A DNA stretch of 64,000 nucleotides from a virus. Its lineage: Duplodnaviria > Heunggongvirae > Uroviricota > Caudoviricetes. A program made the translations under genes and the position numbers. The stretch lies in IMG/VR virus record IMGVR_UViG_2687453424_000001. One strand, given 5' to 3'. Positions 3,084-61,435 of this stretch are shown here, piece after piece. The notes below the pieces were generated by a model, which saw only the letters and a list, made by a program, of their open reading frames with translations, ran no database searches and was not told the DNA's origin. Each line of letters begins with the position of its first letter. Positions within the stretch are counted from its first letter, which is position 1.

Positions 3084-3311
3084 CTTTAGTGACTTGACCT
3101 TATCTGGCAAGGTATAAGTTAAAACAACCTTCTGGTCTTGCTCAACAACATTAACTAACTGCAAGAAATTGGGATCAGCTTGCTTTAATTCGTTTAGCTC
3201 ACTTAATTGGTCGTAGCGAAATTGATTGTGATTGAGTTCGAGGATTAGCTTGTTCCCTTGTCGTTTGAACGTGCCAACCTCAATATTCAATAGCTGGTTT
3301 GCTTTACTCAT
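3084..3311 (-). CDS. hypothetical protein, 5' part only (76 codons, runs into the gap); downstream gene of the conjugation operon
   Basis: Minus-strand ATG at 3309-3311 overlaps the VirB4 stop (ATGAGTAA arrangement). Translation MSKANQLLNIEVGTFKRQGNKL... stays open to the contig edge at 3084. Low-GC bacterial codon usage. No family recognised. Confidence 0.5.
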
Positions 3312-5167
3312 TTAAAGTCCCTCCTTCTTCTTCGGTGGTGGTCAAGGCGTCAATTTCACTCGGTGTCAGGATCACACGCTTTTGATAATCCGGTTGTCCG
3401 GCGGTCTCACGGTTGTATTTTTCTTGGTAAGCTTCTGGGTCGATTAACCGCAATTCTTCTTCGGTTAGCTCCACCCGCATAAAAGCGCGTTGGCTACCAT
3501 AGATCATCAGGGCTTCACCTTGTCTACGGCGTTCTAGTAACTTCTTTTCCTTATCCGAGAACGTCATTCTTAACTTAGTAATGACATCATCAACACCTTT
3601 ACCATCAAGGCCAAAGAATACCTTGGTATAGGAGTTCCCAATAATGGCTTCACCAATGTTCTGCCCAGTATCTGTCGTTCCTTCAATCACATCTTGAATT
3701 TGTTGCGTTCCGGCAATCGCCCCGGCATTGTACTTTCTAAAGCGCTTATAGGCTTGATGGAAAAAGGTAGCGGCCGCTTTATGCAAGGTCAGAAAATGAA
3801 ATTCGTCAACAAACAATTTCTTGCGGCTATGCCGATCTTTCGTGATTTCGTCCCACAAATATTGAAAAGTATTCAGGTAGGCTGCTGATTGGACTTCCTG
3901 TTCACTTTGCAGCGGTTTTAAATCAAAGGAAATGATCTTGCCCTTTAAGTTGACGTTGGTGTGTCCGTCAAATAGGCTGTTAGAACCATGGGTATAACTG
4001 CCTAAGATGTAGTAGAAGTCTTTAACCCGACTGAATTTGTCAGCGTCCTTATCAGCTAGTTTTTCCAACTCGTCATAGACATTGGATAAGGTCGGCCACT
4101 GATCGTCTTTAATCTCTTTTAAGCGGCTATATTTCAAAACGCCACTGTTGACATAAGCCTGTTTAACAACATCATCAAGGATTGCCAATTCAACTTGGGT
4201 AATCCCGGTTTTGAGGACTTCAAAGAATCCCTTTAGTCGTTGAATTTTATCTTTGACTAGTAAATCAAGGTTTGTGACCGCTTCATCAGCGCTTAGGATT
4301 TCTTCGGAAAAGATTTGTAGCGGGTTAATTTTGTACTTCGCATTGGAAGTTAAATGCAAGACTGCCCCACCCAAGGCTTCAACAATCTTGGTATATTCAT
4401 TTTCTGGATCAATAATGTAGAGTTGATAGTCTTGAATGGCATAGCGTAGGATTTTTTGGATCATATAGGTGGTCTTGCCGACCCCACTGGTACCAATAAC
4501 CACCATGTTTTGGTTCAACGTTTTGTTGCGATCCAACATATCCACGGCAATTAAGCTGTTGGTGTCTTTGTTAACCCCTTCAATATCGCTTCTAGGCTTT
4601 AAGTCCAAAATCTCGGCGTCATCAAAAGGAAACATGCTGCTGGCAACTTCGGTATTACTTTCCTTATACGTATAATCGCCTAATAGATTTTCGTTGATTG
4701 GCATAGTAGACCAAAAACTTTGAAAAGTTGCTTTAACGGGCACTAAGGGCTTCATTTGTAGCTTAATCAGTGTATTTTTAACGTTGTCAGTTAAATCGTC
4801 TAGTTCCGCTAAACTGTTAGCCCGCAGATAAACCAGCATATGTTGGTACACAAATGTGGTAGAATTATCGAGGTATTTATCTAGTTGCATATTGGCCGAA
4901 TCAATATAATTTTGCAGAATTTTCTTTTTATACGGGTCGAACGTATTTAGCTTCTGCGCTTCCTTATTTTGGATCGTCTTTTTGTAATAGGTAATCATTG
5001 AATTGTTACTGGCGCTGTCGATATATTGCACAATATCGATAACGCCTTTTTTGCGCTTTAATTCTGATAGCCAGTTGCCGTGAACTCGCTTGGGATAGTC
5101 AGCAATCGCTAACACCCGGATAAAGTTCTCCCCCGACTGCACGTAGGTGGGGTACTGTTCCCAACTG
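3304..5167 (-). CDS. VirB4-family type IV secretion / conjugal transfer ATPase (TrsE/TraE/PrgJ-like), 5'-truncated
   Basis: Bacterial part of minus-strand ORF 3304..5364. Walker A GTSGVGKT is encoded at 4471-4494; Walker B-like LFVDEFHF at about 3795-3818; AGTQ motif follows. Stop TAA at 3304-3306. The N-terminal ~65 residues of the listed ORF are read from avian repeat DNA and are not part of the protein. Confidence 0.8.
3319..3324 (-). promoter_or_regulatory. Shine-Dalgarno-like GGAGGG, 7 nt upstream of the downstream-gene ATG
   Basis: Minus strand reads GGAGGGACTTTAAATG. Confidence 0.45.
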
Positions 5168-5172
5168 CAGGT
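5165..5172. other. chimeric junction between bacterial DNA and avian repeat DNA, at a CTGCAG (PstI) site
   Basis: Homology to the avian repeat copy at 45160-45365 runs up to about 5171. Beyond it the sequence is low-GC bacterial coding DNA. No N gap at the junction. Confidence 0.7.
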
Positions 5173-6130
5173 AGTCTCATGTCCCTTTGATGGCTGGAAC
5201 CCCAAGAGGTGTAGCATGGAGACAAGAAAGATGAGGAGGGTGGATGCCCCCTGCATGAAGGGGAAACTTGGATTTCTGGAGGTCCTCTGTGTGACAGGGA
5301 ACAGGTGGGGTTGGCTTTTGTGACTGAGGATCAGAGGAGTGGATAAGAGGGACATTGTGCTCACAGTTACAAACTACTTGCTCAGGGAGGGGAAACAGAA
5401 AAGGTCTTTTGTCAGCACCTGAGGAAGCCTCCAGGCTAATGAGCAGGTACCTTGCAGGTAATTGCCCTGGTGGTCCCTGGCCATGCAAAGCAACAGGGTG
5501 CAACAATGTGGAGGGTCTTGGCACAACCGGTTAACACAGGTGCAGGGCGGGCCAACAAGGGTGATGCTCCCCTGGAAAAGCTGCTCAGGATGTGATCATC
5601 AGTGTCAGCCTTGGCTGTCATGAGCATGCAATAGTGGGGACTCAGATGCTAAAGGGCATGAGGAAGGCCAGCAGCAGAGAACAGACTCTGGACTTACTTG
5701 GGGACAATTCCAGGAGTTTCCATGGGAAGCGGCTCTGATGGTGAAGGAGCATGAGCAAGTCTGCTAACGATCCCTGAGCCTGGAATACCTGGAGGGCTTC
5801 CAAGGTCCACCAGGGCTTTTGCCACCTTTCTGAATGCCGGTCAGGCTCCTGAGGGCTTTAGCACAGTTGCAGAGCACCAGCGCATTCTGGAATGGCCGGT
5901 GTTATTCCTCAGCCTTGCCAGAGCCTGCTGAGGCCTCTGCCTCCATCTAGAATGCTTGGGGAGATTCTGCAGGATTGGTGCAGACTGCCAGGGCCCTGCC
6001 ATGTTCTGCAATGTTGGGTGTCCTTCCAAGCGTGCTGGTGCAAGCACTTCCCTGGGCATTGCTGGAACCCTCCAGTTTCCCAGCAGGGCCTTCGCCGCCT
6101 TCCAGTAGCCTCGATGTGCTGCCGCGGTGC
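5173..6130. repeat. avian satellite-like repeat (family A), inverted relative to the copy at 44291-45400
   Basis: Translations of the two regions are near-identical on opposite strands (e.g. LEASSGADKRPFL.PLPEQVVCNCEHNVPL; GRTPNI.E.GRALAVCTNPAE.PQAF). Degenerate ~60 bp internal periodicity. Confidence 0.6.
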
Positions 6131-6139
6131 TGTGGTTTA

Positions 6140-6317
6140 AGTCCAGTCAGTAATTCAGAACCACGTAGTCGCTCGCTCACTCTCCCCCCTTCCTCCCCCC
6201 CACTCCCAGAGGGATGGGAAGGAGAATCGAAAAAATATAACTCGCACAGGTTGAGATAAGAACAGTCAAGTAACTAAGGAATAGCACAAACCACAGCCGC
6301 TACCACCAGTAATAATA
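6140..6317 (+). mobile_element. partial LTR (family L), 5' portion, truncated by CR1
   Basis: Same sequence pattern as the start of the LTR at 31296-31836 (gtggtttaa..cagtcag ... ctaccaccagtaataatag). Confidence 0.5.
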
Positions 6318-6376
6318 GTAGAATCATAGAATCGTAGAATCATAGAATAGTTAGGATGGGAAAGGACCTTAAGACC
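6318..6376 (-). mobile_element. CR1 LINE 3' terminus (ATTCTRTG-type octamer repeats), continuing into the gap
   Basis: Plus strand reads tagaatcatagaatcgtagaatcatagaat then ttaggatgggaaaggacc; minus-strand translation GLKVLSHPNYSMIL matches the CR1 3' end seen at 60430-60476. Confidence 0.7.
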
Positions 6377-8004: not shown

Positions 8005-9515
8005 GTCCTCGTGGCCCTCCTCTGGACTTGTTCCAACAGTTCCATGTCCTTTTTATGTTGAGGACACCAGAACTGCACACAATACCCAAGTGAGGTCTCA
8101 CGAGAGCAGAGTAGTGGGGCAGGATCACCTCCTTCGACCTGCTGCTCACGCTCATTTTGATGCAGCCCAGGATACGGTTGCTTTCTGGGCTGCGAGCACA
8201 CACTGCAGCTGGCTCATGTTCATTTTTCATCGACCAACACCCCCAAGTCTTTCTCCACAGGGCTGCTCTGGATCTCTGCTATCCCCAACCTGTAGCTGTG
8301 CCTGGGATTGCTCCGACCCAGGTGTAGGACCTTGCACTTGGCATGGTTAAACTTCATCAGGTTGGCATCAGCCCACCTCACAAGCGTGTCGAGGTCCCTC
8401 TGCATGGCATCCCTTCCCTCCGGCGTATCAACCGAACCACACAGCTTGGTGTCATCGGCAAACTTGCTGAGGGCGCACTCAATCCCACTGTCCATGTCAG
8501 CGACAAAGATGTTGAACAAGACCGATCCCAACACTGATCCCTGAGGAACACCACTTGTTACCGGTCTCCAGCTGGACATCGAGCCATTGACCACAACTCC
8601 TTGCGTGCGGCCATCCAGCCAGATCTTTATCCACCGAGTGGTCCACCCATCAAATTGATGTCTCTCCAATTAGAGACAAGGATGTCATGTCGGACAGTGT
8701 CGAACGCTTTGCACAAGTCCAGGTAGATGACCTCAGCTGCTCTACCCCTATCCATCAGTTCCATAGCCCCATCATAGAAGGCCACCAAATTGATCAGGCA
8801 GGATTTCCCCTTTGTGAAGCCATGCTGGCTGTCACCAACCACCTCCTTGTTTTTCATGTGCCTTAGCATGCCTTGCAGGAGAATCTGCTCCAAGAGTTTG
8901 CCAGGCACAGAGGTGAGACTGACTGCTCTGTAATTCCCCTGATCATCCATTTTCCCCTTCTTGAAAACAGGGGCTATATTTCCCTTTTCCCAGTCATCGG
9001 GAGCTTCACCTGACTGCCATGATCTTTCAAATATGATGGACTGTGTAAACTTCATTTGCCAGCTCCTTCAGGACCCGTAGATGGATTTCATTAGGTCCCA
9101 TGGACATGTGCACGTTCAGGTTCTTAAGATGGTCTTGAACCAGATCCTGTCTTACAGTGGGCCCAAGGTCTTCATTCTCACAGTCCCTGCTTCTGCCTTC
9201 CAAGACTTGGGTGATGTGGTCAGAGCCTTTGCCAGTGAAGACTGAGGCAAAGAAGTAATTCAGAACCTCAGCCTTCTCCAAATCCAGGGTAGCCAGTTCT
9301 CCTGCTAGTTTCTGGAGGGGGCCTATGTTGTCCCTAGTCTGTCTTTTATTTGCTACATACCTATAGAATCCCTTCCTGTTATCTTTCACATCCCTAGCCA
9401 AGTTTAATTCTAACTGGGCCTTAGCTTTCCTAACCTGGTCCATAGCTTCTCAGACAACATCCCTGTATTCTTCCCAGGCTGCCTTCCACCATCCCCTAAA
9501 GTTCAAATGCTTTTT
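8005..9515 (-). mobile_element. CR1 LINE ORF2 fragment (reverse transcriptase domain and C-terminal region), degenerate
   Basis: Minus-strand ORFs 9027..9443, 8627..9055 and 8220..8669 carry RT motifs ([29 protein letters not shown]; [13 protein letters not shown]; KCKVLHLG). 8005-8201 encodes [27 protein letters not shown]. Frameshifts between the pieces. Confidence 0.8.
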
Positions 9516-16788: not shown

Positions 16789-17180
16789 AGAATACAGCTG
16801 AACAATGGACATGTGAGCAATCCCAGCTGTTTGGTTTTAGCCAAACTCTGACTTAAGTTGCAAGGTCTGAATTCAAGTTACTCAGGCTGTGAGGCCTAGC
16901 CTTAGGTTACTAAAGGACAGTTACGTGCAGTAGAATAAGGAACTTGGCATTTGCTCAAGGCTAACAAGATGTGGGAGCGGGATGGTGAAACTGCAAGTTA
17001 TGTGAGAAAGGTAGCGAATGGATAATTTTAGCTAGCTTGTTATCTGCTTCAAAATGTGTGGACTGCACTTCTGAGCCAATCACAATCTATATTGGTTACG
17101 TCTAGCCAATAGCAGTTCAATTTCTGGAAGCATATACTGTAGCTACTGTAGCTACTGTGCTACGACAGTGGTCTGTGGAC
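16789..17180 (+). mobile_element. possible LTR-like segment between env and pol remnants
   Basis: Position after the env stop; CCAAT-box-like motifs (ccaatcacaatc, agccaatagc). Boundaries not defined. Confidence 0.25.
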
Positions 17181-17244
17181 CCCATTGGCCATTGAGACTA
17201 CGATGGAATGTGCGCAAGTCCTTTTTCAGGCTTTGTCTGAGCGA

Positions 17245-17660
17245 GCTGCTGAAATTTGCCCAAATCACTGTAATAGTCATTCGCACATCCCTGGACTCCT
17301 GACTGAAGGTAGCAATAGTGCAGACCGTGTTGCACAAGGTCTGCCAGTTCCTGACTGTTGTGCTCCAGTTTTTATGCGCTATTTACATGTCACGGTTGAT
17401 ACCTGTAGCAGTGTCATTTTGGCTACAGCACAACGCAAGCAAGACGCCAAAGCAGCCATTTTGCATTGGCGCGAGGTCATGGCGATTTTGGGAGTCCCTA
17501 GCCAGATCAAGACCGACAATGGTCCAGCATATTCAAGTCAACTGGTGGCTTCATTTTTATGACAGTGGGGCATTGAGCATAAGACCGGTTGTCCTTATAA
17601 CAGCACTGGCCCAGCTATCGTCGAACGCGCGCACCGGACTCTGAAAGCTCGCCTCGTGTG
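17245..17660 (+). mobile_element. ERV pol remnant: RNase H C-terminus and integrase catalytic core, frameshifted
   Basis: ORF 17185..17562 has GNSADRVA (RNase H end), HVTVDTCSS and IKTDNGPAYSS (the two Asp motifs). The next frame at 17563-17640 gives [28 protein letters not shown] (the Glu motif). Confidence 0.65.
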
Positions 17661-23229: not shown

Positions 23230-23700
23230 ATCTCTCTGCGTCCCAGGAGCCCAGCCCAGCTCAGCAGCAGAGGCCCAGCCCAAGGTGGCTCTGCCTCTGC
23301 CCGGCTGGGCACCATCCAGGGCTCCCTGGTGCTCCAGGGGAACACCATGGGAAACAGCCTGAAGCAAGCACTGATGTTCCCTCCCTCAGCTGGCAGACAC
23401 ACTGCCTGCCTGCAGTGTCATTTCTCTGATGAGAGACAGAGTTTGGTCTGAACAACAAGATTTTGTAGAATCATGGAACCATTTAGGCTGGAAAAGAACC
23501 TTAAGATCATTGAGTCCAACATTAACCAAACACTGGCAAGTCAACACATTAAGCATGTCCCTTAGAACATGTCTATTAAATACCTCCAGGGTTGATGACA
23601 AAACCACTTCTGCAGGCAGCCTGTTTCTTGTCCCATTATTAGACACCCTCTCACAGTAGAATGGGGTTTTGCTGAGCATGGCTCTTCCTGTGACCTATTC
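23230..23700. repeat. segment A of an inverted-repeat pair (partner at 46400-46878); includes a CR1 3' end at 23466-23660 (minus orientation)
   Basis: ORF 23061..23402 (minus) and ORF 46706.. (plus) both start MCLPAEG.NISACFRLFPMVFPWS.REPW. CR1 end tagaatcatggaaccatttaggctggaaaagaacc at 23466. Confidence 0.6.
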
Positions 23701-24141: not shown

Positions 24142-25275
24142 ATCATAGAATCATAGAATCATCCAGGTTGGAAAAGACCTTTAAGCTCTTCCAGTTCAAC
24201 CCTTACCCCAGCACTGCCGAGGCCACCACTAACCCATGGCACTGAGGCCTCGTCTCCATGGAGTGTGAACACTCACAGGGACGGTGACTCCAGCCCTGCC
24301 CTGGGCAGCCTGTTCCAATGCCAGAGCACCCTCTGGGGAAGGAATTGTTCCTCAGCTCCATCTAAACCTGCCCTGGTGCAGCTTGAGGCCGTTTCCTCTT
24401 GTCCCATCCCTTGTTCCTTGGGAGCAGAGCCCAGCCTCTCCTGGCTCCATCCTCCTGTCAGGCAGTTGTAGGGAGCGATCAGGTCCCCCCTGAGCCTTCT
24501 CTTCTCCAGACTGAACCCCCCAGGTCCCTCAGCCGTTCTCCATCACACTGTGCTCCAGGCCCTGCACCAGCTCCGGTGCCCTTCTCTGGCCCCGCTCCAG
24601 CACCTCAATGTCTCTCTTGTTAGTCAGGGACCCAGAGCTGAACACAGGATCCGAGGTGCAGCCTCACCAGTGCCCAGTGCAGGACACAACCACTGCCCTG
24701 GCCCTGCTGCCGCACTGGTGCTGATCCAGGCCAGGATGCTGGTGGCTTCCTGGCTGCCTGGGCACAAGCTGCTCCTGTTCAGCTCCATCAATCAGCACCC
24801 CCAGCTCCTTTCCCATGAGCAGTTTCCAACCGCTCTTCCCCAAGCCTGGAGCATTGCAGGGGGTTGTTGTGGCCCAAGTGCAGGAGCCAGCACTTTGCCT
24901 TCTGGAACCTCATCCCATTGGCCACAGCCCATGGATGCAGCCTGTCCAGATCCCTCTGCAGAGCTTCCTACCCTCCAGCAGATCAATGTTCCCACCTGAT
25001 TTGGTGTCATCTGCAAATTTACACATCCCAGTATGGAGCAGTATGGACCAGTTTGCACCAGTACAGACCAATATAGGCCACTATGGCCCCAGATATTGCT
25101 GGGGTTTCAATATCCCAGTGCTCCCAGTCCCTGCTGCAGGTCTTCTCATTTGCAGCCATGCTCAACTCCCAATCCCTCCCAGTGCTCCCACTACCTGCTG
25201 CAGGTGCTCCCAATCCCTCTCAGTCCTCCCCAGTCCCTCCCAGTGCTCCCAGTCCCTGCCACCGGTGCTCCTTCT
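24142..25275 (-). mobile_element. CR1 LINE 3' portion (3' terminus at about 24142), degenerate, continuing into the gap
   Basis: atcatagaatcatagaatcatccaggttggaaaagacc at 24142; 24300-25020 has the same sequence pattern as 8005-8700. Confidence 0.6.
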
Positions 25276-30047: not shown

Positions 30048-30597
30048 TTCAGGCTGGTCCCCTTTCCTGGTTTAGCAGTAGCAGTCATTTTTTCTACTGG
30101 TGCAGTGCTGTGTTTTGACTTTCGACCTGGGAATAATACTGATAAAGCTGATGTTTTCAGTTGTGGGTCAGAATGTTTACCCTGACCAAGGACTTTGTGA
30201 GTCTCATGCTGTGCCAGGGAGGAGGAGAAGCCGGGAGGAAGCAGAGACAGGACACCTGACCCAAACTAGCCAAAGAGGTATTCCATACCACAGCACGTCA
30301 TGCCCAGGATGTAGAATGGAGAGGGCCCGGAAGGGCTAGATGACTGCGGGGTGAGGTACCGGTTGGTGAGCGATTGTATTCTCTTCCTTGTTATTTCCTT
30401 TATCATTATTACTATTAGTGGTAGCAGTAGTGATTTGTGTTATACCTTAGTTATTAAACTGTTCTTATCTCAACCCGTGGGAGTTGCATTCTTTCGATTC
30501 TCCTCCCCATCCCTCCAGGAGCGGAGGGAAGAAAGGTGTGGGGGGGAAGTAGACTGCGTGGTTCTGATTTATGGCCTGGGCTTAAACCACAACATCC
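30048..30597 (-). mobile_element. LTR (family L), copy 1, minus orientation
   Basis: Reverse complement matches the copy at 31296-31836 end to end; ORF 30100..30339 and ORF 31589..31786 (minus) give near-identical peptides (HA.PGRR.SREEA.TGHLTQ.SQRGIPYHSTSCPG). Confidence 0.65.
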
Positions 30598-31295: not shown

Positions 31296-31836
31296 AGAAC
31301 TGTCGTGGTTTAAACCCAGTCAGCCATCAATCAGCCACACAGTCTCTCCCCCCACTTCTTTCCCTCCCCCTGCTCCCGGAGGGATAGGAAGGAGAATTGA
31401 AAGAATGTAACTCCCACAGGTTGAGGTAAGAACAGTTTAGCAACTAAGGTATAACACAAATCACTACTGCTACCACCAATAATAATAGTGATAAAGGAAA
31501 TAACAAGGGAAGAGAATACAACACCTCACCACCCGCCAACCGATAACTCACCCCCACCCAGCAGTGATCCAGCCCTTCCGGGTAACTCTCAGTTACCTCC
31601 CGGGCATGACGTGCTGTGGTATGGAATACCTCTCTGGCTAGGTTGGGTCAGGTGTCCTGTCCCTGCTTCCTCCCGGCTTCCCCTCCTCCCTGGCAGAGCA
31701 TGAGACTCAGAAAGTCCTTGGTCAGACCAAACATCGGTGTTATCAGCTCTGTTCCCAGGCTGAAAGTCAAAAACACAGCGCTGCACCAGGTACTAAGGAG
31801 AAAAAATGACTGCTACTTCTGAACCAGGACAGCACC
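31296..31836 (+). mobile_element. LTR (family L), copy 2, plus orientation
   Basis: Starts tgtcgtggtttaaaccc and ends ..gaaccaggaca; partial copies at 6140-6317 and about 39480-39980. Confidence 0.65.
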
Positions 31837-31839
31837 AAG

Positions 31840-32280
31840 TGACACCAAGTGACCCTCCAGACCTACAACTGCCCCCCAAAGTGACACCCCAGATCCACAA
31901 CTGCCTCCCCAGTTACCTGAAGGAGATTCCTCAGACCCACATCCGCCCCAAGTGACCCCACAGTGACCCCACATACCCACAACTGCCCCCCAAGTGACCC
32001 ACCCACACCCACAACTGCCCCCAGTGACCCCAAAGAGACCTCTCAGACCCACAGCTGATGCCCAAATGATACCCCAGACCTACAACTGCCATCCAAGTGA
32101 CCCTCCAGACCCACAAGTGCCCCCCACGTGACCCCAAAATAACTCCTCAGACCCACAACTGACCTACAAGTGATCCCAAGTGACCCCCATTACCTACAAC
32201 TGCCCCCAAGGTGACCACCAAGTGACCCCCCAGACCCACAACTGCCCCCCCAGTGACCTCAAAGAGACCGCTCAGAACAT
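31840..32280. repeat. tandem repeat, degenerate ~41 bp unit (cagacccacaactgccccccaagtgacccc), about 11 copies
   Basis: Periodic repetition seen directly; minus-strand ORF 31813..32052 is its translation. Confidence 0.7.
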
Positions 32281-33077: not shown

Positions 33078-33428
33078 AATAGGGAAATGGGGCTTCTTTT
33101 GGTTAGTGCCTGTGTCACATCAGGCTGTTATGTTTTCATAGTGGGGTCCTATGTGCAGATCTTCAGGGCCGTGCTGAGGATCCCCTCTGAGCAGGGACCC
33201 CACAAAGCCTTTCCCACGTGCCTCCCTCACCTGGACGTGCTCTCCCTGTTTGTCAGCACTGGTACCTTTGCCTACCTAAAGCCCCTCTCCGTCTCCTCTG
33301 CCTCCCAGGATCTGGCTATGGTGGTGCTGTACTCAGTGTTGCCTCCAGCAGGAAACCCCCTCATCTGCAGCCTGAGAAACCAGGAGCTCAAGGATGCTCT
33401 GAGGAAGCTGGTGACCAGATGCGTTTGA
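33078..33428 (+). pseudogene. olfactory receptor fragment (C-terminal TM5-TM7 third only); truncated, probably pseudogene
   Basis: ORF 33087..33428: LRIPSEQGPHKAFPTCLPHLDVLSLF ... NPLICSLRNQELKDALRKL fits the olfactory-receptor C-terminal pattern (LRIPS..KAFSTC..HL.VV.LFY..NPLIYSLRN). In-frame TAA at 33075-33077 and no upstream TM1-TM4 in any frame. Confidence 0.65.
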
Positions 33429-38949: not shown

Positions 38950-39345
38950 CAACAATGATGGGTTTATGAAGAGTCACAAAAATGCTCCAAGGGCTGGAGC
39001 ACATCTCTGATGAAGACAGGCTGAGAGAGCTGGGGATGTTCAGCCTGGAGAAGACAAGGTTCCAGGGATACATCTTAGCAAGCTGCCCATTTCTAAACAC
39101 GGCCTACAAGAAATCTGGACAGGGGCTTTTTACAAGTGTGTGCAATTACAGGAGAAGGGGAGATGGCTTTGAGCTGAAAGAGGGGGATTTAGATCAGACA
39201 TTAGGAAGGAATTCTTCCCTGTGACAGTGGTGGGACACTGGCACAGGGTGCCCAGAGAAGCTGTGGCTGCCCCGTCCCCGGCAATGTTCAAGGCAAGGTT
39301 GGACACAGGGGCTTGGAGCAACCTGCTCTAGTGGACCACCATAAA
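38950..39345 (+). mobile_element. CR1 LINE 3' portion (ORF2 C-terminus), plus orientation, lacking the terminal octamer repeats
   Basis: ORF 38982..39224 GLEHISDEDRLRELGMFSLEK and, in the following frame, VVGHWHRVPREAVAAPSPAMFKARLD. Confidence 0.65.
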
Positions 39346-39980: not shown

Positions 39981-40462
39981 GGTGCTGAGCGAGCGGCTGC
40001 TGGTGCTGAGTTCCCGGCTGGGTTTCAACACTGCCCCTGTCCTGGCCCCTTTGCTGTGGCAGCAGGGGCTGGACGTTTGCACTCTTGGAGCTGGGCTCTT
40101 TGTATGGGCACGCAGCTGGAAGCAGCATTCTTTGGCTCAGGAAGCGCAGCTCCCCAGTGTTGCTGGGGCTGGGGCAGTGCTTGCCAAGGGCAGGGGAGGC
40201 CCAGCAACAGCTCCTGTCCTGGCCCTGCTGCTGGGGGAGCAGAGGGGCTCCCGCGGGCATTGCCGCAGTCAGGATTGCGCAGGTGTGCCCAGAGCCCACC
40301 AGCTCCTTCCCACCTTGCGCAATGCCCGCTGGGCTTCTGGGCTGTGCCTGCGCCTGCCAGGGCCTTTGTCACCTTCCAGAATGCATTGGCAGAGCCCAGC
40401 AGAGCACTGGAGCCTTGCGCAATGCCCGCCGCTGGCCTGGCCTTTACCAGAGCCCAGCGGCA
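39981..40462. repeat. satellite-like repeat (family A; tgcgcaatgcccgc / cctttaccagagc motifs), running into the gap
   Basis: Same motifs as 44330-44560. Confidence 0.5.
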
Positions 40463-43400
40463 NNNNNNNNNNNNNNNNNNNNNNNNNNNNNNNNNNNNNN
40501 NNNNNNNNNNNNNNNNNNNNNNNNNNNNNNNNNNNNNNNNNNNNNNNNNNNNNNNNNNNNNNNNNNNNNNNNNNNNNNNNNNNNNNNNNNNNNNNNNNNN
40601 NNNNNNNNNNNNNNNNNNNNNNNNNNNNNNNNNNNNNNNNNNNNNNNNNNNNNNNNNNNNNNNNNNNNNNNNNNNNNNNNNNNNNNNNNNNNNNNNNNNN
40701 NNNNNNNNNNNNNNNNNNNNNNNNNNNNNNNNNNNNNNNNNNNNNNNNNNNNNNNNNNNNNNNNNNNNNNNNNNNNNNNNNNNNNNNNNNNNNNNNNNNN
40801 NNNNNNNNNNNNNNNNNNNNNNNNNNNNNNNNNNNNNNNNNNNNNNNNNNNNNNNNNNNNNNNNNNNNNNNNNNNNNNNNNNNNNNNNNNNNNNNNNNNN
40901 NNNNNNNNNNNNNNNNNNNNNNNNNNNNNNNNNNNNNNNNNNNNNNNNNNNNNNNNNNNNNNNNNNNNNNNNNNNNNNNNNNNNNNNNNNNNNNNNNNNN
41001 NNNNNNNNNNNNNNNNNNNNNNNNNNNNNNNNNNNNNNNNNNNNNNNNNNNNNNNNNNNNNNNNNNNNNNNNNNNNNNNNNNNNNNNNNNNNNNNNNNNN
41101 NNNNNNNNNNNNNNNNNNNNNNNNNNNNNNNNNNNNNNNNNNNNNNNNNNNNNNNNNNNNNNNNNNNNNNNNNNNNNNNNNNNNNNNNNNNNNNNNNNNN
41201 NNNNNNNNNNNNNNNNNNNNNNNNNNNNNNNNNNNNNNNNNNNNNNNNNNNNNNNNNNNNNNNNNNNNNNNNNNNNNNNNNNNNNNNNNNNNNNNNNNNN
41301 NNNNNNNNNNNNNNNNNNNNNNNNNNNNNNNNNNNNNNNNNNNNNNNNNNNNNNNNNNNNNNNNNNNNNNNNNNNNNNNNNNNNNNNNNNNNNNNNNNNN
41401 NNNNNNNNNNNNNNNNNNNNNNNNNNNNNNNNNNNNNNNNNNNNNNNNNNNNNNNNNNNNNNNNNNNNNNNNNNNNNNNNNNNNNNNNNNNNNNNNNNNN
41501 NNNNNNNNNNNNNNNNNNNNNNNNNNNNNNNNNNNNNNNNNNNNNNNNNNNNNNNNNNNNNNNNNNNNNNNNNNNNNNNNNNNNNNNNNNNNNNNNNNNN
41601 NNNNNNNNNNNNNNNNNNNNNNNNNNNNNNNNNNNNNNNNNNNNNNNNNNNNNNNNNNNNNNNNNNNNNNNNNNNNNNNNNNNNNNNNNNNNNNNNNNNN
41701 NNNNNNNNNNNNNNNNNNNNNNNNNNNNNNNNNNNNNNNNNNNNNNNNNNNNNNNNNNNNNNNNNNNNNNNNNNNNNNNNNNNNNNNNNNNNNNNNNNNN
41801 NNNNNNNNNNNNNNNNNNNNNNNNNNNNNNNNNNNNNNNNNNNNNNNNNNNNNNNNNNNNNNNNNNNNNNNNNNNNNNNNNNNNNNNNNNNNNNNNNNNN
41901 NNNNNNNNNNNNNNNNNNNNNNNNNNNNNNNNNNNNNNNNNNNNNNNNNNNNNNNNNNNNNNNNNNNNNNNNNNNNNNNNNNNNNNNNNNNNNNNNNNNN
42001 NNNNNNNNNNNNNNNNNNNNNNNNNNNNNNNNNNNNNNNNNNNNNNNNNNNNNNNNNNNNNNNNNNNNNNNNNNNNNNNNNNNNNNNNNNNNNNNNNNNN
42101 NNNNNNNNNNNNNNNNNNNNNNNNNNNNNNNNNNNNNNNNNNNNNNNNNNNNNNNNNNNNNNNNNNNNNNNNNNNNNNNNNNNNNNNNNNNNNNNNNNNN
42201 NNNNNNNNNNNNNNNNNNNNNNNNNNNNNNNNNNNNNNNNNNNNNNNNNNNNNNNNNNNNNNNNNNNNNNNNNNNNNNNNNNNNNNNNNNNNNNNNNNNN
42301 NNNNNNNNNNNNNNNNNNNNNNNNNNNNNNNNNNNNNNNNNNNNNNNNNNNNNNNNNNNNNNNNNNNNNNNNNNNNNNNNNNNNNNNNNNNNNNNNNNNN
42401 NNNNNNNNNNNNNNNNNNNNNNNNNNNNNNNNNNNNNNNNNNNNNNNNNNNNNNNNNNNNNNNNNNNNNNNNNNNNNNNNNNNNNNNNNNNNNNNNNNNN
42501 NNNNNNNNNNNNNNNNNNNNNNNNNNNNNNNNNNNNNNNNNNNNNNNNNNNNNNNNNNNNNNNNNNNNNNNNNNNNNNNNNNNNNNNNNNNNNNNNNNNN
42601 NNNNNNNNNNNNNNNNNNNNNNNNNNNNNNNNNNNNNNNNNNNNNNNNNNNNNNNNNNNNNNNNNNNNNNNNNNNNNNNNNNNNNNNNNNNNNNNNNNNN
42701 NNNNNNNNNNNNNNNNNNNNNNNNNNNNNNNNNNNNNNNNNNNNNNNNNNNNNNNNNNNNNNNNNNNNNNNNNNNNNNNNNNNNNNNNNNNNNNNNNNNN
42801 NNNNNNNNNNNNNNNNNNNNNNNNNNNNNNNNNNNNNNNNNNNNNNNNNNNNNNNNNNNNNNNNNNNNNNNNNNNNNNNNNNNNNNNNNNNNNNNNNNNN
42901 NNNNNNNNNNNNNNNNNNNNNNNNNNNNNNNNNNNNNNNNNNNNNNNNNNNNNNNNNNNNNNNNNNNNNNNNNNNNNNNNNNNNNNNNNNNNNNNNNNNN
43001 NNNNNNNNNNNNNNNNNNNNNNNNNNNNNNNNNNNNNNNNNNNNNNNNNNNNNNNNNNNNNNNNNNNNNNNNNNNNNNNNNNNNNNNNNNNNNNNNNNNN
43101 NNNNNNNNNNNNNNNNNNNNNNNNNNNNNNNNNNNNNNNNNNNNNNNNNNNNNNNNNNNNNNNNNNNNNNNNNNNNNNNNNNNNNNNNNNNNNNNNNNNN
43201 NNNNNNNNNNNNNNNNNNNNNNNNNNNNNNNNNNNNNNNNNNNNNNNNNNNNNNNNNNNNNNNNNNNNNNNNNNNNNNNNNNNNNNNNNNNNNNNNNNNN
43301 NNNNNNNNNNNNNNNNNNNNNNNNNNNNNNNNNNNNNNNNNNNNNNNNNNNNNNNNNNNNNNNNNNNNNNNNNNNNNNNNNNNNNNNNNNNNNNNNNNNN

Positions 43401-44042
43401 NNNNNNNNNNNNNNNNNNNNNNNNNNNNNNNNNNNNNNNNNNNNNNNNNNNNNNNNNNNNNNNNNNNNNNNNNNNNNNNNNNNNNNNNNNNNNNNNNNNN
43501 NNNNNNNNNNNNNNNNNNNNNNNNNNNNNNNNNNNNNNNNNNNNNNNNNNNNNNNNNNNNNNNNNNNNNNNNNNNNNNNNNNNNNNNNNNNNNNNNNNNN
43601 NNNNNNNNNNNNNNNNNNNNNNNNNNNNNNNNNNNNNNNNNNNNNNNNNNNNNNNNNNNNNNNNNNNNNNNNNNNNNNNNNNNNNNNNNNNNNNNNNNNN
43701 NNNNNNNNNNNNNNNNNNNNNNNNNNNNNNNNNNNNNNNNNNNNNNNNNNNNNNNNNNNNNNNNNNNNNNNNNNNNNNNNNNNNNNNNNNNNNNNNNNNN
43801 NNNNNNNNNNNNNNNNNNNNNNNNNNNNNNNNNNNNNNNNNNNNNNNNNNNNNNNNNNNNNNNNNNNNNNNNNNNNNNNNNNNNNNNNNNNNNNNNNNNN
43901 NNNNNNNNNNNNNNNNNNNNNNNNNNNNNNNNNNNNNNNNNNNNNNNNNNNNNNNNNNNNNNNNNNNNNNNNNNNNNNNNNNNNNNNNNNNNNNNNNNNN
44001 NNNNNNNNNNNNNNNNNNNNNNNNNNNNNNNNNNNNNNNNNN
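40463..44042. other. assembly gap (N run)
   Basis: uninterrupted run of N. Confidence 0.99.
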
Positions 44043-44104
44043 CCTGCGAGGGGTCACAGCTCAGCCTGGGCAATGGAACAGGGCATCACGGCCACCGACG
44101 AGAA

Positions 44105-44290
44105 GTGAAGAGTGACCGACATTGGCACAGCAGAAAATCATGGAATCCCAGACAGGGCTGGACTGGAAGGGAACTTAAAGCTCCTCCAATCCACTGCCAT
44201 GGGTAGGGACATCTTCCACTAGAACAGTTTACTCCAACCTCTGTCCAACCTGGTCTTGAACACTGCCAGAGTTGGAAGTCACTGATTAAT
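44105..44290 (-). mobile_element. CR1 3'-end fragment, minus orientation
   Basis: aatcatggaatcccagacagggctggactggaagggaac ... gggacatcttccactagaac ... ccaacctggtcttgaacactgccag is the reverse complement of the CR1 end region. Confidence 0.5.
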
Positions 44291-45400
44291 TACCATTGGT
44301 CATTAATAAGGCCCTCCTCACGCTGCCAGCAGGGGCCTGCGCTCTGCCCCTGCAGGGCTGCTGCAGGGTTACCAGAACCCGCCAGCCCCATTGCCCCCTG
44401 CCGCAATCCCTGCCAGGCTTCTGCAGGCCTTGCCAGAGCCCTCCTGGGGTTTGCCACCTCCTGCAATGCCCGCTCGGCTCCCACTGCCTTTACCAGTGCT
44501 CCGGGCCCCTGCAACACCTTCAGGAGCCGCCAGGCATTGAGGAAGGTGGCAGGGTCTGGTGGGATCTGGCACAACCTGTGCAGGCTTGACGGCGTTCTGC
44601 AAGACCGCACGGACCCTGGGGTGCCCATGGAACCTGGGTGTGCGTTCTAGACAGAGGCTGCAGCCTTGGGGGCCTCCAGCAATGCCCGCAGCAGCACATC
44701 GGGGCTGCTGGAAGGGGGCAAAGGTCCTTGTGGGCTCTGGCAATGCCCATGGAAGTGCTTCCACCAGCACGCTTGGAAGGACTCCCAACATTCCAGAATG
44801 TGGCAGGGCCCTGGCAGTCTGCACCAACCCAGCAGAAGCTCCTCAAGCATTCCGGATGGAGGCAGAGGCCTCAGCGGGCTCTGGCAAGGCTGAGGAATAA
44901 CACCAGGCATTCCAGAATGCAGCAGGTGCTCTGGAACTGTGCTAAAGCCCTCAGGAGCCTGTCTGACATTGTGGAAGGTGGCAAAAGCCGTGATGGACCT
45001 TGGAAGCCCTCCGCATTGTTGCACCCTGTTGCTTTGCCTGGCCAGGGAATGCTGAACAGGGAATGCAGTTCCATAGCAACCTGCTCATTAACCTGGAGGC
45101 TTCCTCAGGTGCTGACAAAAGACCTTTTCTGTTGCCCCTCCCTGAGCAAGTAGTTTGTAACTGTGAGCACAATGTCCCTCTTACTGACTCCTCTAACCCT
45201 CAGTGACAAAAGCCAACCCAACCTGTTCCCTGTCACATTGAGGACCTCCAGAAATCCAAGCTTCCCCTTCATGCAGGGGGCATCAACCCTCCTCATCCTT
45301 CTTGTCTCCATGTTACACCTCCTGAGGTTCCAGCCATCAAAGACACATGAGATTATCTGTACTATTCTCCCCTTACAGCGCTGGATCTAAGGAGCAGCTA
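44291..45400. repeat. satellite-like repeat (family A) with ~60 bp degenerate tandem units
   Basis: cattccagaatg-type cores at 44789, 44848, 44908 and 44967 (spacing 59-60 bp); inverted copy at 5173-6130. Confidence 0.6.
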
Positions 45401-46399
45401 TGGCAGGGGGATTGGACTAGATGATCTTTTGAGGTCCCTTCCAATTCCTGATGTTCTGTGATTCTGTGTGATTTTAAATGATGCCTCACAGAGTCCAGTG
45501 CCTTCCTCCTGGGACAGGAACAGACCAGCAGGTCCTGGTGAAAAACCTTTTCTCTGCAACTTGGATGCAACCTCTTCGGTCCCAAGGACTGGTAAGGGTG
45601 TAGTTTGCAAAGTAACCCCTGGCTTGATCCCCATCCAGTGCTGGTTGTTCCCCTTTTCCATCCAGAGCCTTAAAGCACAAAGTCCTGGGAAACCTGGCTG
45701 GTGGTAACTGAGGCAAAGAGGAGATAGGCGACCTGAGATCTACCTCTGTGTACTCTCACTTTATTTAGTGGTGGTCCTGTGTTATCTTGTTCCTTCTTTA
45801 ACTGTTCCTGAAGTAGCTGCAGCTCATCCTGGTGCCCTTGAATTCCTGTTTGACTGAGATTTGCTATGACCCATGGCTGTGCATGGAGGATGCTGTCTCT
45901 GAAGGCCACATGTACCCAACCACAAAGTTAAAATGCTTGGGTTGTTCCTCAGTTAAATCATCAAGGGAGTGAGTAAAGACACTGCAGTGATGTACTTTGT
46001 GTTCCCTCAATGCCTGCAGCTAAGGGGTGTCAGAAAGGACAGACCTTGCTTCGCTAATAGAAACTGATGGCTGATGCCTGTGAGTGCTACAAGAATATTC
46101 TCAACGATATTGTCTTGTCTCTCTCAGCCTGCACGTATCTTCGACCTGTCTCTATTACCTGTATGTAACATTGACCAACCCTGTAATGCCAAATGTCCCA
46201 GAGATTTGCATGCAGACAACTCACTCTTGGCCCCCATCGATTGTAATGCTGAGACAAAGAGTTGTCATGTAGGTACCTTTTAAATAAAGACCTGACCAGA
46301 GGCAGGAGGAATCCCACCTCCTATAGGTTTATGGTGTGCATGGGAGGGAGCTGAGTTCCCTTTCAACCCCAGGCCTACAGTCTCAGGAGGAGATGCCTC

Positions 46400-46878
46400 A
46401 ACTAACTATGGTGAATCCATTCCATCAGCAAGGCTAAAGGAGATCTCAGCCTGTCCTGTCCTGGCTGTCCAAATGATGGGACAAGAAACAGGCTGCCCAC
46501 AGAAGTGGTTCTGTCACCATCCCTGGCGGTCTTTAAAAGACGTGGAGATGTGGCACCTGTTGACATGGGTGGACTTGACAGTGTTTGGTTAGTGGTTAGA
46601 GTCAACCTTAAGGGTCTTTTTGAAATTTATGATTCTGGAATTCTGAGAAACTTTATTTACACCAAACTCCATCTCTCAGCAGAGCAATGACACTGCAGGC
46701 AGGCAGTGTGTCTGCCAGCTGAGGGAAGGAACATCAGTGCTTGCTTCAGGCTGTTTCCCATGGTGTTCCCCTGGAGCCCCAGGGAGCCCTGGAGGGAGCC
46801 CAGCGGGACAGAGGCAGAGCCACCTTGGGCTGGGCCTCTGCTGCTGAGCTGGGCATGGCTCCTGGGATGCAGACAGAT
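46400..46878. repeat. segment B of the inverted-repeat pair (partner 23230-23700); includes a CR1 3' end at about 46400-46650 (plus orientation)
   Basis: Reverse complement of 23230-23700; ends ..ttatgattctggaattctgag. Confidence 0.6.
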
Positions 46879-59924: not shown

Positions 59925-60476
59925 GAACATGAGCCAGCTGTGTGCAGTCGCTTGGGGTATTGTGTGCAGTTCTGGTGTCCTCAACATCAAAAGGACATGG
60001 AACTGTTGGAGCAAGTCCAGAGGAGGGCCACAAGGATGATCAGGGGACTGGAGCACCTCCCATATGAAGACAGGCTGAGGAAGTTGGGGCTGTTCAGCCT
60101 GGAGAAGAGAAGGCTGCGTGGAGACCTCATAGCAGCCTTCCAGTATCTAAAGGAGGCCTATTAATATGCTGGAGAGGGCCTCTTCACTAGGGACTGTAGT
60201 GATAGGACAAGGGGTAACATGCTCAAACATAAACAGAGGAAGTTGAGATTGGATATAAGGAAGAAGTTCTTGACTGTAAGGGTGGTGAGGCACTGGAAGA
60301 GGTTGCCCAGGGAAGTCGTGAATGCTCCATCCCTGGCAGTGTTCAAGGCCATTTTGGATAGAGCCTTGGGTGACATGGTTTAGTGGGAGGTGTCCCTGCC
60401 CATAGCAGGGGGGTTGGAACTAGATGGTCTTAAGGTCCTTTTCAACCCTAACTATTCTATGATTCTACAATTCTAA
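59925..60476 (+). mobile_element. CR1 LINE 3' portion (ORF2 C-terminus and 3' end with octamer repeats)
   Basis: ORF 59940..60164 [67 protein letters not shown]; then VVRHWKRLPREVVNAPSLAVFKA; terminal ctattctatgattctacaattcta. Confidence 0.8.
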
Positions 60477-60679: not shown

Positions 60680-60757
60680 GTTAGGGTTCTCTGCTGGGTT
60701 AGGGTTAGGGTTAGGGTTTTAGGGGGTTAGGGCGTTAGGGGGTTAGGGCGTTAGGGT
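60680..60757 (+). repeat. short degenerate telomere-like repeat (TTAGGG / TTAGGGGG / TTAGGGC units) abutting vector sequence
   Basis: ggttagggtt...gggttagggttagggttagggttttagggggttagggcgttaggg seen directly. Confidence 0.75.
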
Positions 60758-60763
60758 AAAAAG

Positions 60764-61106
60764 CTCGCTTTCAGCACCTGTCGTTTCCTTTCTTTTCAGA
60801 GGGTATTTTAAATAAAAACATTAAGTTATGACGAAGAAGAACGGAAACGCCTTAAACCGGAAAATTTTCATAAATAGCGAAAACCCGCGAGGTCGCCGCC
60901 CCGTAACCTGTCGGATCACCGGAAAGGACCCGTAAAGTGATAATGATTATCATCTACATATCACAACGTGCGTGGAGGCCATCAAACCACGTCAAATAAT
61001 CAATTATGACGCAGGTATCGTATTAATTGATCTGCATCAACTTAACGTAAAAACAACTTCAGACAATACAAATCAGCGACACTGAATACGGGGCAACCTC
61101 ATGTCC
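60764..61106 (-). other. phage lambda cos region (right end joined to left end across cosN), as carried in BAC/fosmid/cosmid vectors
   Basis: Reverse complement matches, from memory, the lambda left end (gggcggcgacctcgcgggttttcgctatttatgaaaattttccgg...) and right end (...cctttccggtgatccgacaggttacg); the cohesive-end junction lies at about 60890-60902. Confidence 0.85.
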
Positions 61107-61126
61107 GAGCTCGCGAGCTCGTCGAC
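61107..61126. other. synthetic polylinker (GAGCTC-TCGCGA-GCTC-GTCGAC: SacI/NruI/SacI/SalI sites)
   Basis: Restriction-site string between lambda-derived and F-derived sequence. Confidence 0.6.
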
Positions 61127-61435
61127 AGCGACACACTTGCATCGGATGCAGCCCGGTTAACGTGCCGGCACGGCCTGGGTAACCAGGTATTTTGTCCACA
61201 TAACCGTGCGCAAAATGTTGTGGATAAGCAGGACACAGCAGCAATCCACAGCAGGCATACAACCGCACACCGAGGTTACTCCGTTCTACAGGTTACGACG
61301 ACATGTCAATACTTGCCCTTGACAGGCATTGATGGAATCGTAGTCTCACGCTGATAGTCTGATCGACAATACAAGTGGGACCGTGGTCCCAGACCGATAA
61401 TCAGACCGACAACACGAGTGGGATCGTGGTCCCAG
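61127..61435. other. F-plasmid-derived vector backbone next to sopC, with the first sopC centromere repeats (about 61352-61435)
   Basis: tgggaccgtggtccca inverted-repeat cores in direct repeats (gaccgataatcagaccgacaacacgagtgggatcgtggtcccag), recalled as the sopC partition site of pBeloBAC11-type vectors. Confidence 0.75.

What the first reader, a model, noticed from the sequence alone, without database searches (positions are those of the whole stretch)
39981..45400. Satellite-like family A with ~60-bp units on both sides of a gap, plus an inverted copy at 5173-6130
Repeat units with cattccagaatg-type cores recur every 59-60 bp at 44789-44967, and related motifs end the contig at 40462. The intervening gap (40463-44042) may be an unresolved array of this satellite. 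A ~1 kb copy in opposite orientation sits next to the bacterial junction, and a short fragment at 52440-52570.
Basis: seen in the sequence. Interest (0 to 1): 0.4.

Follow-up and report, generated by a model that had tools for sequence, protein, structure and literature searches.

The report
Decayed 60-bp repeat in bird DNA
This is a short, badly decayed run of ~60-base repeats inside a non-coding block present in a few diverged copies in a very fragmented bird-like genome scaffold; it is real but ordinary, and nothing shows that the neighbouring gap hides a large satellite.

Summary
The repeat is real, but it is not a satellite. A ~19-24-nt core (GCATTCCAGAAKGNGGCAG) recurs at 59/60/59-bp spacing at 44784-45012, with 6 matches in the window against 0.07 expected. 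Lag-60 autocorrelation over 44291-45020 gives z=5.7. Units are only ~52-55% identical, and Tandem Repeats Finder reports nothing. The array is about 12 units (~700 bp): roughly 3-4 units on the minus strand (44313-44527) meet about 8 on the plus strand (44530-45012).

The inverted copy is confirmed: 5168-5515 and 5791-6127 match 45359-44686 at 86-89%. A third copy (Logan contig L001, run SRR15669263) is 88-90% identical and ends the array at the same left boundary (44313). Copies align unit for unit, so the array decayed before the block was copied. Cores are no better conserved than spacers, and there are no Pfam or Rfam matches.

At the left gap edge, 40200-40462 is a true distant relative with a 100-bp period; 39981-40199 is unrelated. 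The right gap edge (44043-44312) is unrelated sequence plus a CR1 fragment. The gap is one of eleven N runs covering 62% of the window.

Copy A ends at 5167/5168 against Lactiplantibacillus plasmid DNA, so that contig is chimeric. Low interest.

The parts
40200..40462 (-). Patch C: distant family-A relative at the end of the left contig. It has one clear unit (40335-40384) and weaker neighbours, with a 100-bp period.
   Evidence: nhmmer E 5e-8. Sensitive blastn to copy B gives 62.5 bits against a shuffle maximum of 39.7. Lag 100 has z=5.3.
40463..44042 (.). Assembly gap (N run, 3580 bases). Its content is unknown.
44130..44288 (-). 5'-truncated CR1 3'-end fragment lying between the gap and the array. 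It is not family A.
   Evidence: 44191-44276 matches 60411-60326 at 76.7%. That partner largely overlaps, and runs just past, the CR1 ORF2 C-terminal tblastn hit at 59952-60380. The limits 44130-44288 were set by reading the sequence.
44313..44527 (-). About 3-4 degenerate ~60-bp units in minus orientation. 44313 is the left end of homology with the external copy L001.
   Evidence: Unit at 44419-44469(-) with E 3e-7. 60-bp spacings in families D4, D5 and D7. Lag 60 has z=5.0. L001 alignment starts at 44313.
44530..45012 (+). About 8 units in plus orientation. The last four (44784-45012) are the clear 59/60/59-bp run, with an ABAB 119-bp higher-order pattern.
45013..45359 (+). Non-repetitive part of the copied block, shared with copy A and, as far as 45184, with L001.
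   Evidence: 88.7% to 5515-5168. 90.5% to L001 1208-1383. No Pfam hit.
5168..5515 (-). Copy A, non-repetitive part. It is cut at 5167/5168 by bacterial plasmid DNA.
5516..5790 (+). Segment present in copy A and in L001 but absent from copy B. It resembles the CR1 ORF2 endonuclease-RT linker. The ends of B's deletion carry CCCTCC microhomology.
   Evidence: Alignment A1. tblastn E 1e-4 in both A and L001, using a CR1 ORF2 sequence recalled from memory that also hits the RVT_1-verified CR1 at 8007-9500 at 66-79% identity. Junction sequences.
5791..6127 (-). Copy A, array part: four clear units at 5789-6013, orthologous to 44784-45012, plus weaker unit-like sequence to 6127. The copy is cut at 6128 by another dispersed repeat.
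52462..52560 (+). Fragment F: one or two unit-like sequences; marginal.
   Evidence: nhmmer E 0.06. 44 bits against a shuffle maximum of 36.8.

Best explanation
This is a relic minisatellite: a ~60-bp unit, partly organised as a ~119-bp dimer, that was amplified in tandem long ago and has since decayed to ~52-55% identity between units. It lies in non-coding, CpG-depleted DNA of a bird-like genome, as about 3-4 units in one orientation abutting about 8 in the other.

After the array had decayed, the whole composite block was copied as an ordinary piece of genome. The block is the array, an adjacent old CR1-like fragment and ~350 bp of non-repetitive sequence, at least 1.35 kb in all. Most likely this was low-copy segmental or dispersed duplication. 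It produced copy B (44313-45359), copy A (5168-6127, inverted) and at least one more copy seen in an independent sequencing run. Patch C (40200-40462) and fragment F (52462-52560) are older, more diverged relatives.

The copies now drift neutrally and no function is indicated.

Shown: the periodicity, the homology, the unit-for-unit alignment of the copies, and the absence of coding or RNA signal. Inferred: the mode of amplification (slippage or unequal exchange), the mode of copying, and neutrality.
For: - Periodicity and core enrichment.
- The unit model finds 11 units at E<0.01, all within copies A and B and patch C.
- Units are 52-55% identical, while copies are 86.8-89.6% identical and collinear unit for unit.
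- Core positions are 81% invariant among the three copies and spacers 86%, so cores are under no extra constraint.
- CpG observed/expected is 0.18 for the contig.
- No Pfam family matches any ORF across the region or P0001, and there is no Rfam match in the window.
- The third copy, L001, carries the same array, bounded on the left by unrelated sequence.
- The segment present in A and L001 is CR1-ORF2-like and is absent from B, with microhomology at the deletion ends. The copied unit is therefore a composite genomic segment, not a single clean element.
Against: - The right end of the block was never seen. Copy A is cut by a chimeric join, L001 ends early, and copy B runs into a CR1 3' end. Segmental copying cannot therefore be separated from transposition.
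- Copy B and L001 share a sharp left boundary with different flanks, which would also fit a mobile element.
- With only three copies and ~230 aligned array columns, the core-versus-spacer test has little power.
- The source organism of L001 is unknown, so it may be an orthologue in another species rather than a paralogue.
Confidence: 0.6

Rival explanations
1. Family A is an uncharacterised non-autonomous transposable element (foldback-like or LTR-like) with internal head-to-head arrays of ~60-bp repeats. The copies arose by transposition.
For: - Copy B and L001 end their homology at the same point (44313) with unrelated flanks.
- At least four pieces of the family lie within the 24.5 kb of real sequence in this window, plus one elsewhere.
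- Units occur in both orientations around ~44527.
Against: - No terminal inverted repeats, LTR termini or target-site duplications were found.
- The head-to-head region does not fold notably better than shuffles (z=-1.84).
- The block contains a CR1-ORF2-like piece, which suggests a composite genomic segment.
- Only one related protein cluster exists among 5.8 billion, with none in the metagenome or viral collections. Those collections hold little bird DNA, so this is weak evidence.
Confidence: 0.2
2. One reading: the 3.6-kb gap hides a long unresolved array of this repeat, that is, a genuine satellite that short reads collapsed.
For: - The left contig ends inside family-A-like sequence.
- Other contigs in the window also break in repeats: 25275 in a 61-bp array, 54073 in telomere repeats, 61435 in a 43-bp repeat.
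Against: - The right contig starts with ~270 bp that are not family A.
- The array in copy B ends at 44313, exactly where it ends in L001, which continues into unrelated sequence.
- Units are about 50% diverged, so they would not collapse in assembly, and L001 shows that short reads assemble the whole array.
- TRF finds nothing.
- The gap is one of eleven similar N runs, which together make up 62% of the window.
Confidence: 0.1
3. The array is a functional cluster of binding sites. The near-palindromic core CATTC-CA-GAATG, spaced every ~60 bp, would bind a dimeric factor, for example as an enhancer near the olfactory-receptor gene fragment in this scaffold.
For: - The core is a near-perfect palindrome and is the best-kept part of each unit within an array.
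- An olfactory-receptor fragment lies at 33078-33425.
Against: - Between copies the cores change as often as the spacers: 81% versus 86% invariant. The exact palindrome is lost in several units.
- No tool here tests binding.
- Any resemblance to known binding motifs is from memory only.
Confidence: 0.05

Closest known systems
Minisatellites (tandem repeats with 10-100-bp units) in vertebrate non-coding DNA
   Same: Unit length of ~60 bp, head-to-tail order, G+C-rich composition, a higher-order dimer (119 bp) and a non-coding setting.
   Different: Units are only ~52-55% identical, too degenerate for TRF. There is no copy-number difference among the three copies over the shared part. Part of the array is inverted. 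It is a relic rather than an active array.
Avian satellite DNAs (e.g. the chicken 41-42-bp CNM and PO41 families; named from my own knowledge, not compared by sequence here)
   Same: Tandem G+C-rich units of tens of bases, in repeat-rich and poorly assembled parts of bird genomes.
   Different: Those families form long homogeneous arrays. Here there are ~12 diverged units in ~700 bp, fully assembled and bounded on the left in L001. No sequence comparison was possible because no eukaryotic repeat library was available.
Low-copy segmental duplications
   Same: A composite block (array, CR1-like fragment and unique sequence) occurs in at least 3 collinear copies, in either orientation, with an internal deletion at microhomology.
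   Different: Identity is 87-90% over about 0.7-1.0 kb, below the usual working definition (at least 1 kb and at least 90%). The full extent is unknown because every copy is truncated by contig ends or chimeric joins.
Transposable elements with internal tandem repeats (foldback elements, LTRs with repeated U3 segments)
   Same: A dispersed family with an internal short-unit array and opposed orientations of units. One sharp boundary is shared by two copies.
   Different: No termini, target-site duplications or coding capacity were found. The predicted hairpin is not significant (z=-1.84).

Membership tests
Satellite DNA | Long uninterrupted head-to-tail arrays (kilobases to megabases) | tested here: not met
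   The longest contiguous array is ~700 bp (44313-45012), of which ~480 bp is in one orientation. In L001 the same array is bounded on the left by unrelated sequence and on the right by the CR1-like segment. The content of the gap is unknown.
Satellite DNA | High identity between monomers (homogenisation, concerted evolution) | tested here: not met
   Mean pairwise unit identity is 0.52-0.55. TRF is negative at score 30. Copies align unit for unit at 87-90%, so there has been no homogenisation since copying.
Satellite DNA | High genomic abundance | not testable with these tools
   No bird genome or read set was available. There is only one related cluster in the protein collection and none in the metagenome, viral or prokaryote collections.
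Minisatellite | Tandem units of 10-100 bp, several copies, beyond chance | tested here: met
   Spacing 59/60/59. Lag-60 z=5.7. 11 units at E<0.01. Core pattern found 6 times against 0.07 expected.
Minisatellite | Variable copy number between alleles or copies | tested here: not met
   A, B and L001 have the same units in the same order over 44686-45012, apart from an 11-base indel. Allelic variation is not testable.
Transposable element | Defined termini (TIR, LTR or poly-A) and target-site duplication | tested here: inconclusive
   Copy B and L001 share a left boundary at 44313 with different flanks. The right boundary was never observed. No inverted terminal structure was found.
Transposable element | Coding capacity or derivation from an autonomous element | tested here: not met
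   No Pfam hit for any ORF of the block. The only TE-like part is a CR1 ORF2-like fragment in A and L001, which looks like a passenger.
Segmental duplication | At least 1 kb at 90% identity or more, collinear, including unrelated sequence types | tested here: inconclusive
   The copies are collinear and composite. However, identity is 86.8-89.6% over 697-889 aligned bases, and all copies are truncated.

The most novel reading that the evidence does not exclude
Family A is a previously undescribed lineage-specific avian mobile or regulatory element. Its head-to-head arrays of a near-palindromic CATTC-NN-GAATG core would serve either as terminal repeats of a foldback-type transposon or as a binding-site array for a dimeric factor, in a subtelomere-like, olfactory-receptor-bearing region.
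Probability: 0.07. Interest if true: 0.3.

Novelty: new member of a known kind. Interest (0 to 1): 0.08.

Why it matters
It matters little biologically. It is one more decayed tandem array in repeat-rich bird DNA, with no sign of function.

Its practical value is for assembly quality control. The copy at 5168-6127 is fused to Lactiplantibacillus plasmid DNA, and another contig in the window is fused to fosmid-type vector sequence. Apparent 'junctions' and repeat arrangements in this scaffold should therefore not be read as biology. The gap should not be annotated as a satellite without long-read evidence.

Tried and rejected
- Tandem Repeats Finder at minimum score 30 found no array in the region.
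- Rfam over the whole window found nothing.
- Pfam on all long ORFs of the block, on P0001 and on hand-stitched translations of the non-repetitive part found nothing. My by-eye reading that 45013-45359 is an antisense CR1 endonuclease domain is therefore not supported. Only the A/L001-specific segment has a tblastn hit.
- A literature search for the core sequence returned only unrelated papers, none on birds or repeats. The run accession SRR15669263 appears in no paper, so the source organism of L001 remains unknown.
- Exact-pattern scans of JGI metagenomes and IMG/VR, and degenerate-pattern scans of metagenomes and prokaryote genomes with P0001, found no relatives.
- The foldback hairpin idea was tested by folding 44313-44760 as DNA: z=-1.84, not notable.
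- Coding repeat: rejected because periods of 59/60/59 do not keep a reading frame and no family matches.
- Allelic or duplicate-assembly artefact for A versus B: rejected because of 13% divergence and a 275-base indel.
- I ran no further search on patch C or the right-hand part. The expected yield was low, given one cluster in 5.8 billion, and the outcome would not change the verdict.
Full report
**Setting.** The window is a very fragmented scaffold: ten contigs of 0.5-4.7 kb separated by N runs, and 62% of all positions are N. Most contigs have strong CpG depletion (observed/expected 0.15-0.30). They carry CR1 retrotransposon pieces: an RVT_1 hit at 8223-8669, and tblastn hits at 8007-9500, 52739-53507, 59952-60380, 38970-39328 and 24246-25038. 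They also carry a retroviral integrase fragment and an olfactory-receptor fragment. CR1 3' ends with the octamer tail are visible directly. I infer from content that this is a bird-like vertebrate genome; the species is not known.

- The repeat finder gives a 24-nt family at 44784/44843/44903/44962 with spacing 59/60/59, and further 60-bp spacings at 44348/44408 and 44397/44457.
- The core GCATTCCAGAAKGNGGCAG with up to 3 mismatches occurs 6 times in the window against 0.07 expected; no shuffle reaches 6.
- Base autocorrelation over 44291-45020 peaks at lag 60 (z=5.7; the 95th percentile of the best lag in shuffles is 3.4).
- In 44780-45020 the strongest lag is 119 (53% identity, z=7.0). The four clear units therefore form an ABAB dimer pattern.
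- A profile built from the four units and iterated with nhmmer finds 11 units at E<0.01. Four lie at 44789-45014(+), and their four counterparts at 5789-6013(-). The others are 44534-44577(+), 44419-44469(-) and 40335-40384(-). Weaker ones lie at 44645-44748.

The reason is that units are only ~52-55% identical in profile columns.

**The inverted copy is confirmed.** 5168-5515 matches 45359-45007 at 88.7%, and 5791-6127 matches 45012-44686 at 86.1%.

**The other pieces, tested with sensitive blastn and shuffle controls.**
- 40200-40462 is a true distant relative (62.5 bits against a shuffle maximum of 39.7).
- 39981-40199 is unrelated (24 bits, equal to the shuffle mean).
- 52440-52570 is marginal (44 bits against 36.8; nhmmer E 0.06).
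- 40200-40462 has a 100-bp period, not 60.
- No other part of the window resembles the family apart from shared CR1 pieces.

**Anatomy.** In copy B about 3-4 units lie in minus orientation (44313-44527), followed head to head by about 8 units in plus orientation (44530-45012). Then come ~350 bp of non-repetitive sequence (45013-45359) and a short CR1 3' end (about 45395-45470). To the left, 44130-44288 is a 5'-truncated CR1 3' fragment on the minus strand, and 44043-44129 is unrelated. The head-to-head part does not fold notably better than shuffles (z=-1.84).

**A relative from elsewhere.** The 171-aa ORF across the array was used purely as a handle. It found one protein cluster among 5.8 billion (P0001, E 2.5e-39, source Logan). 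That cluster lies on a 1384-bp contig of run SRR15669263, fetched as locus L001.
- L001 aligns to 44313-45012 at 89.2%, to 45007-45184 at 90.5%, and to copy A at 84.7%.
- In the three-way alignment the copies are collinear unit for unit, with pairwise identities of 86.8% (A-B), 88.3% (B-L001) and 89.6% (A-L001).
- L001 has the same unit layout. Its homology with B stops at 44313, with unrelated sequence to the left in each. The array is therefore bounded there in two copies.
- L001 was assembled from short reads across the whole array.

**An internal difference between copies.** A and L001 share a 275-316-bp segment that B lacks. The ends of the missing piece carry the microhomology CCCTCC, so a deletion in B is the simplest reading.

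That segment resembles the endonuclease-RT linker of CR1 ORF2. A tblastn search with a CR1 ORF2 sequence that I recalled from memory gives E 1e-4 in both A and L001. The same query matches the Pfam-verified CR1 copies in the window at 66-81% identity, which validates the recalled query. This part is moderately supported. My further by-eye reading that 45013-45359 continues into the CR1 endonuclease domain found no support from Pfam.

**What it is.** Units differ from each other by about half their positions, while whole copies differ by only 10-13% and align unit for unit. The tandem amplification therefore predates the copying of the block, and no homogenisation has happened since. That is the opposite of satellite behaviour.

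Among the three copies, core positions are 81% invariant and spacers 86%, so the cores are not under visible constraint. No ORF in the block matches Pfam, periods of 59/60/59 do not keep a reading frame, and Rfam finds nothing.

The best reading is a relic minisatellite inside a composite non-coding block that was later duplicated a few times and is drifting neutrally. Whether the copying was segmental duplication or transposition of an unknown element is open. The shared left boundary with different flanks favours mobility. The composite content and the lack of any termini favour plain duplication. The right boundary was never seen: A is cut by a chimeric join, L001 ends early, and B runs into a CR1 end.

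**The gap.** Only its left edge ends in family-A sequence. Its right edge does not, and the array's left end at 44313 matches the end seen in L001. Units this diverged do not collapse in assembly. Gaps of 1.6-5.6 kb separate nearly all contigs here. The claim that the gap hides an array cannot be excluded without spanning reads, but the evidence leans against it.

**The 'bacterial junction'.** 3084-5167 is 95% identical to conjugative plasmids of Lactiplantibacillus plantarum, covering a VirB4-like DUF87 conjugal-transfer gene. Homology to copy B starts at the next base. This is a chimeric contig or library contaminant, not a feature of the repeat. A second contig is likewise fused to vector-type sequence.

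**Comparison and novelty.** The feature behaves like an old minisatellite and like a low-copy duplicated segment. It fails the tested defining features of satellite DNA (long arrays, homogeneous monomers). I could not compare it with curated avian repeat libraries because none was available. Searches of metagenome, viral and prokaryote collections and of the literature gave nothing. It is at most a new member of a known kind, and of low interest.

Noticed in passing
window 3084-5167: This is bacterial DNA, 95% identical over 2084 bases to conjugative plasmids of Lactiplantibacillus plantarum (a VirB4-like DUF87 conjugal-transfer gene). It is joined at 5167/5168 directly to bird-like repeat sequence, and an ORF even reads through the join. 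Most likely it is a chimeric contig or contaminant, not gene transfer.
   Followed up: partly
window 60760-61435: This stretch is 100% identical to records deposited as plasmids of unrelated bacteria. By my reading it contains a lambda cos region. It also contains 43-bp repeats (GGGACCGTGGTCCC cores) like sopC of the F plasmid, which points to a fosmid or BAC-type cloning vector. It is fused at ~60757 directly to telomere-like repeats of the bird-like contig.
   Followed up: partly
window 53685-54018 and 60696-60756: There are degenerate telomere-type repeats, (GGGTTA)n: about 51 copies at a contig end and a short run next to the vector join. They may be interstitial or subtelomeric sequence, or a mis-scaffolded chromosome end.
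   Followed up: no
window 33078-33425 (+): The ORF fragment matches the C-terminal half of the olfactory-receptor family (Pfam 7tm_4, E 3e-12). No intact full-length ORF was seen.
   Followed up: no
window 17152-17559 (+): Retroviral-type integrase core fragment (Pfam rve, E 3e-8), probably an endogenous retrovirus remnant.
   Followed up: no
window 25113-25271 and 31835-32262: Two other tandem arrays that TRF does detect: a 61-bp unit (with a 19-bp sub-period) at a contig end, and a C-rich 31/72/114-bp nested array. They are unrelated to family A.
   Followed up: no
window 30062-30594 and 31301-31832; also 6128-6319: There is an inverted pair of ~530-bp repeats at 80% identity, with a third partial copy abutting copy A at 6128. 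It looks like an LTR-type dispersed repeat (from memory only).
   Followed up: no
window 8911-9484 and 52771-53347; 23230-23640 and 46472-46878: These are further repeat pairs between contigs at 84-89% identity. The first pair is CR1 reverse-transcriptase sequence. The same few repeat types recur across this scaffold.
   Followed up: partly
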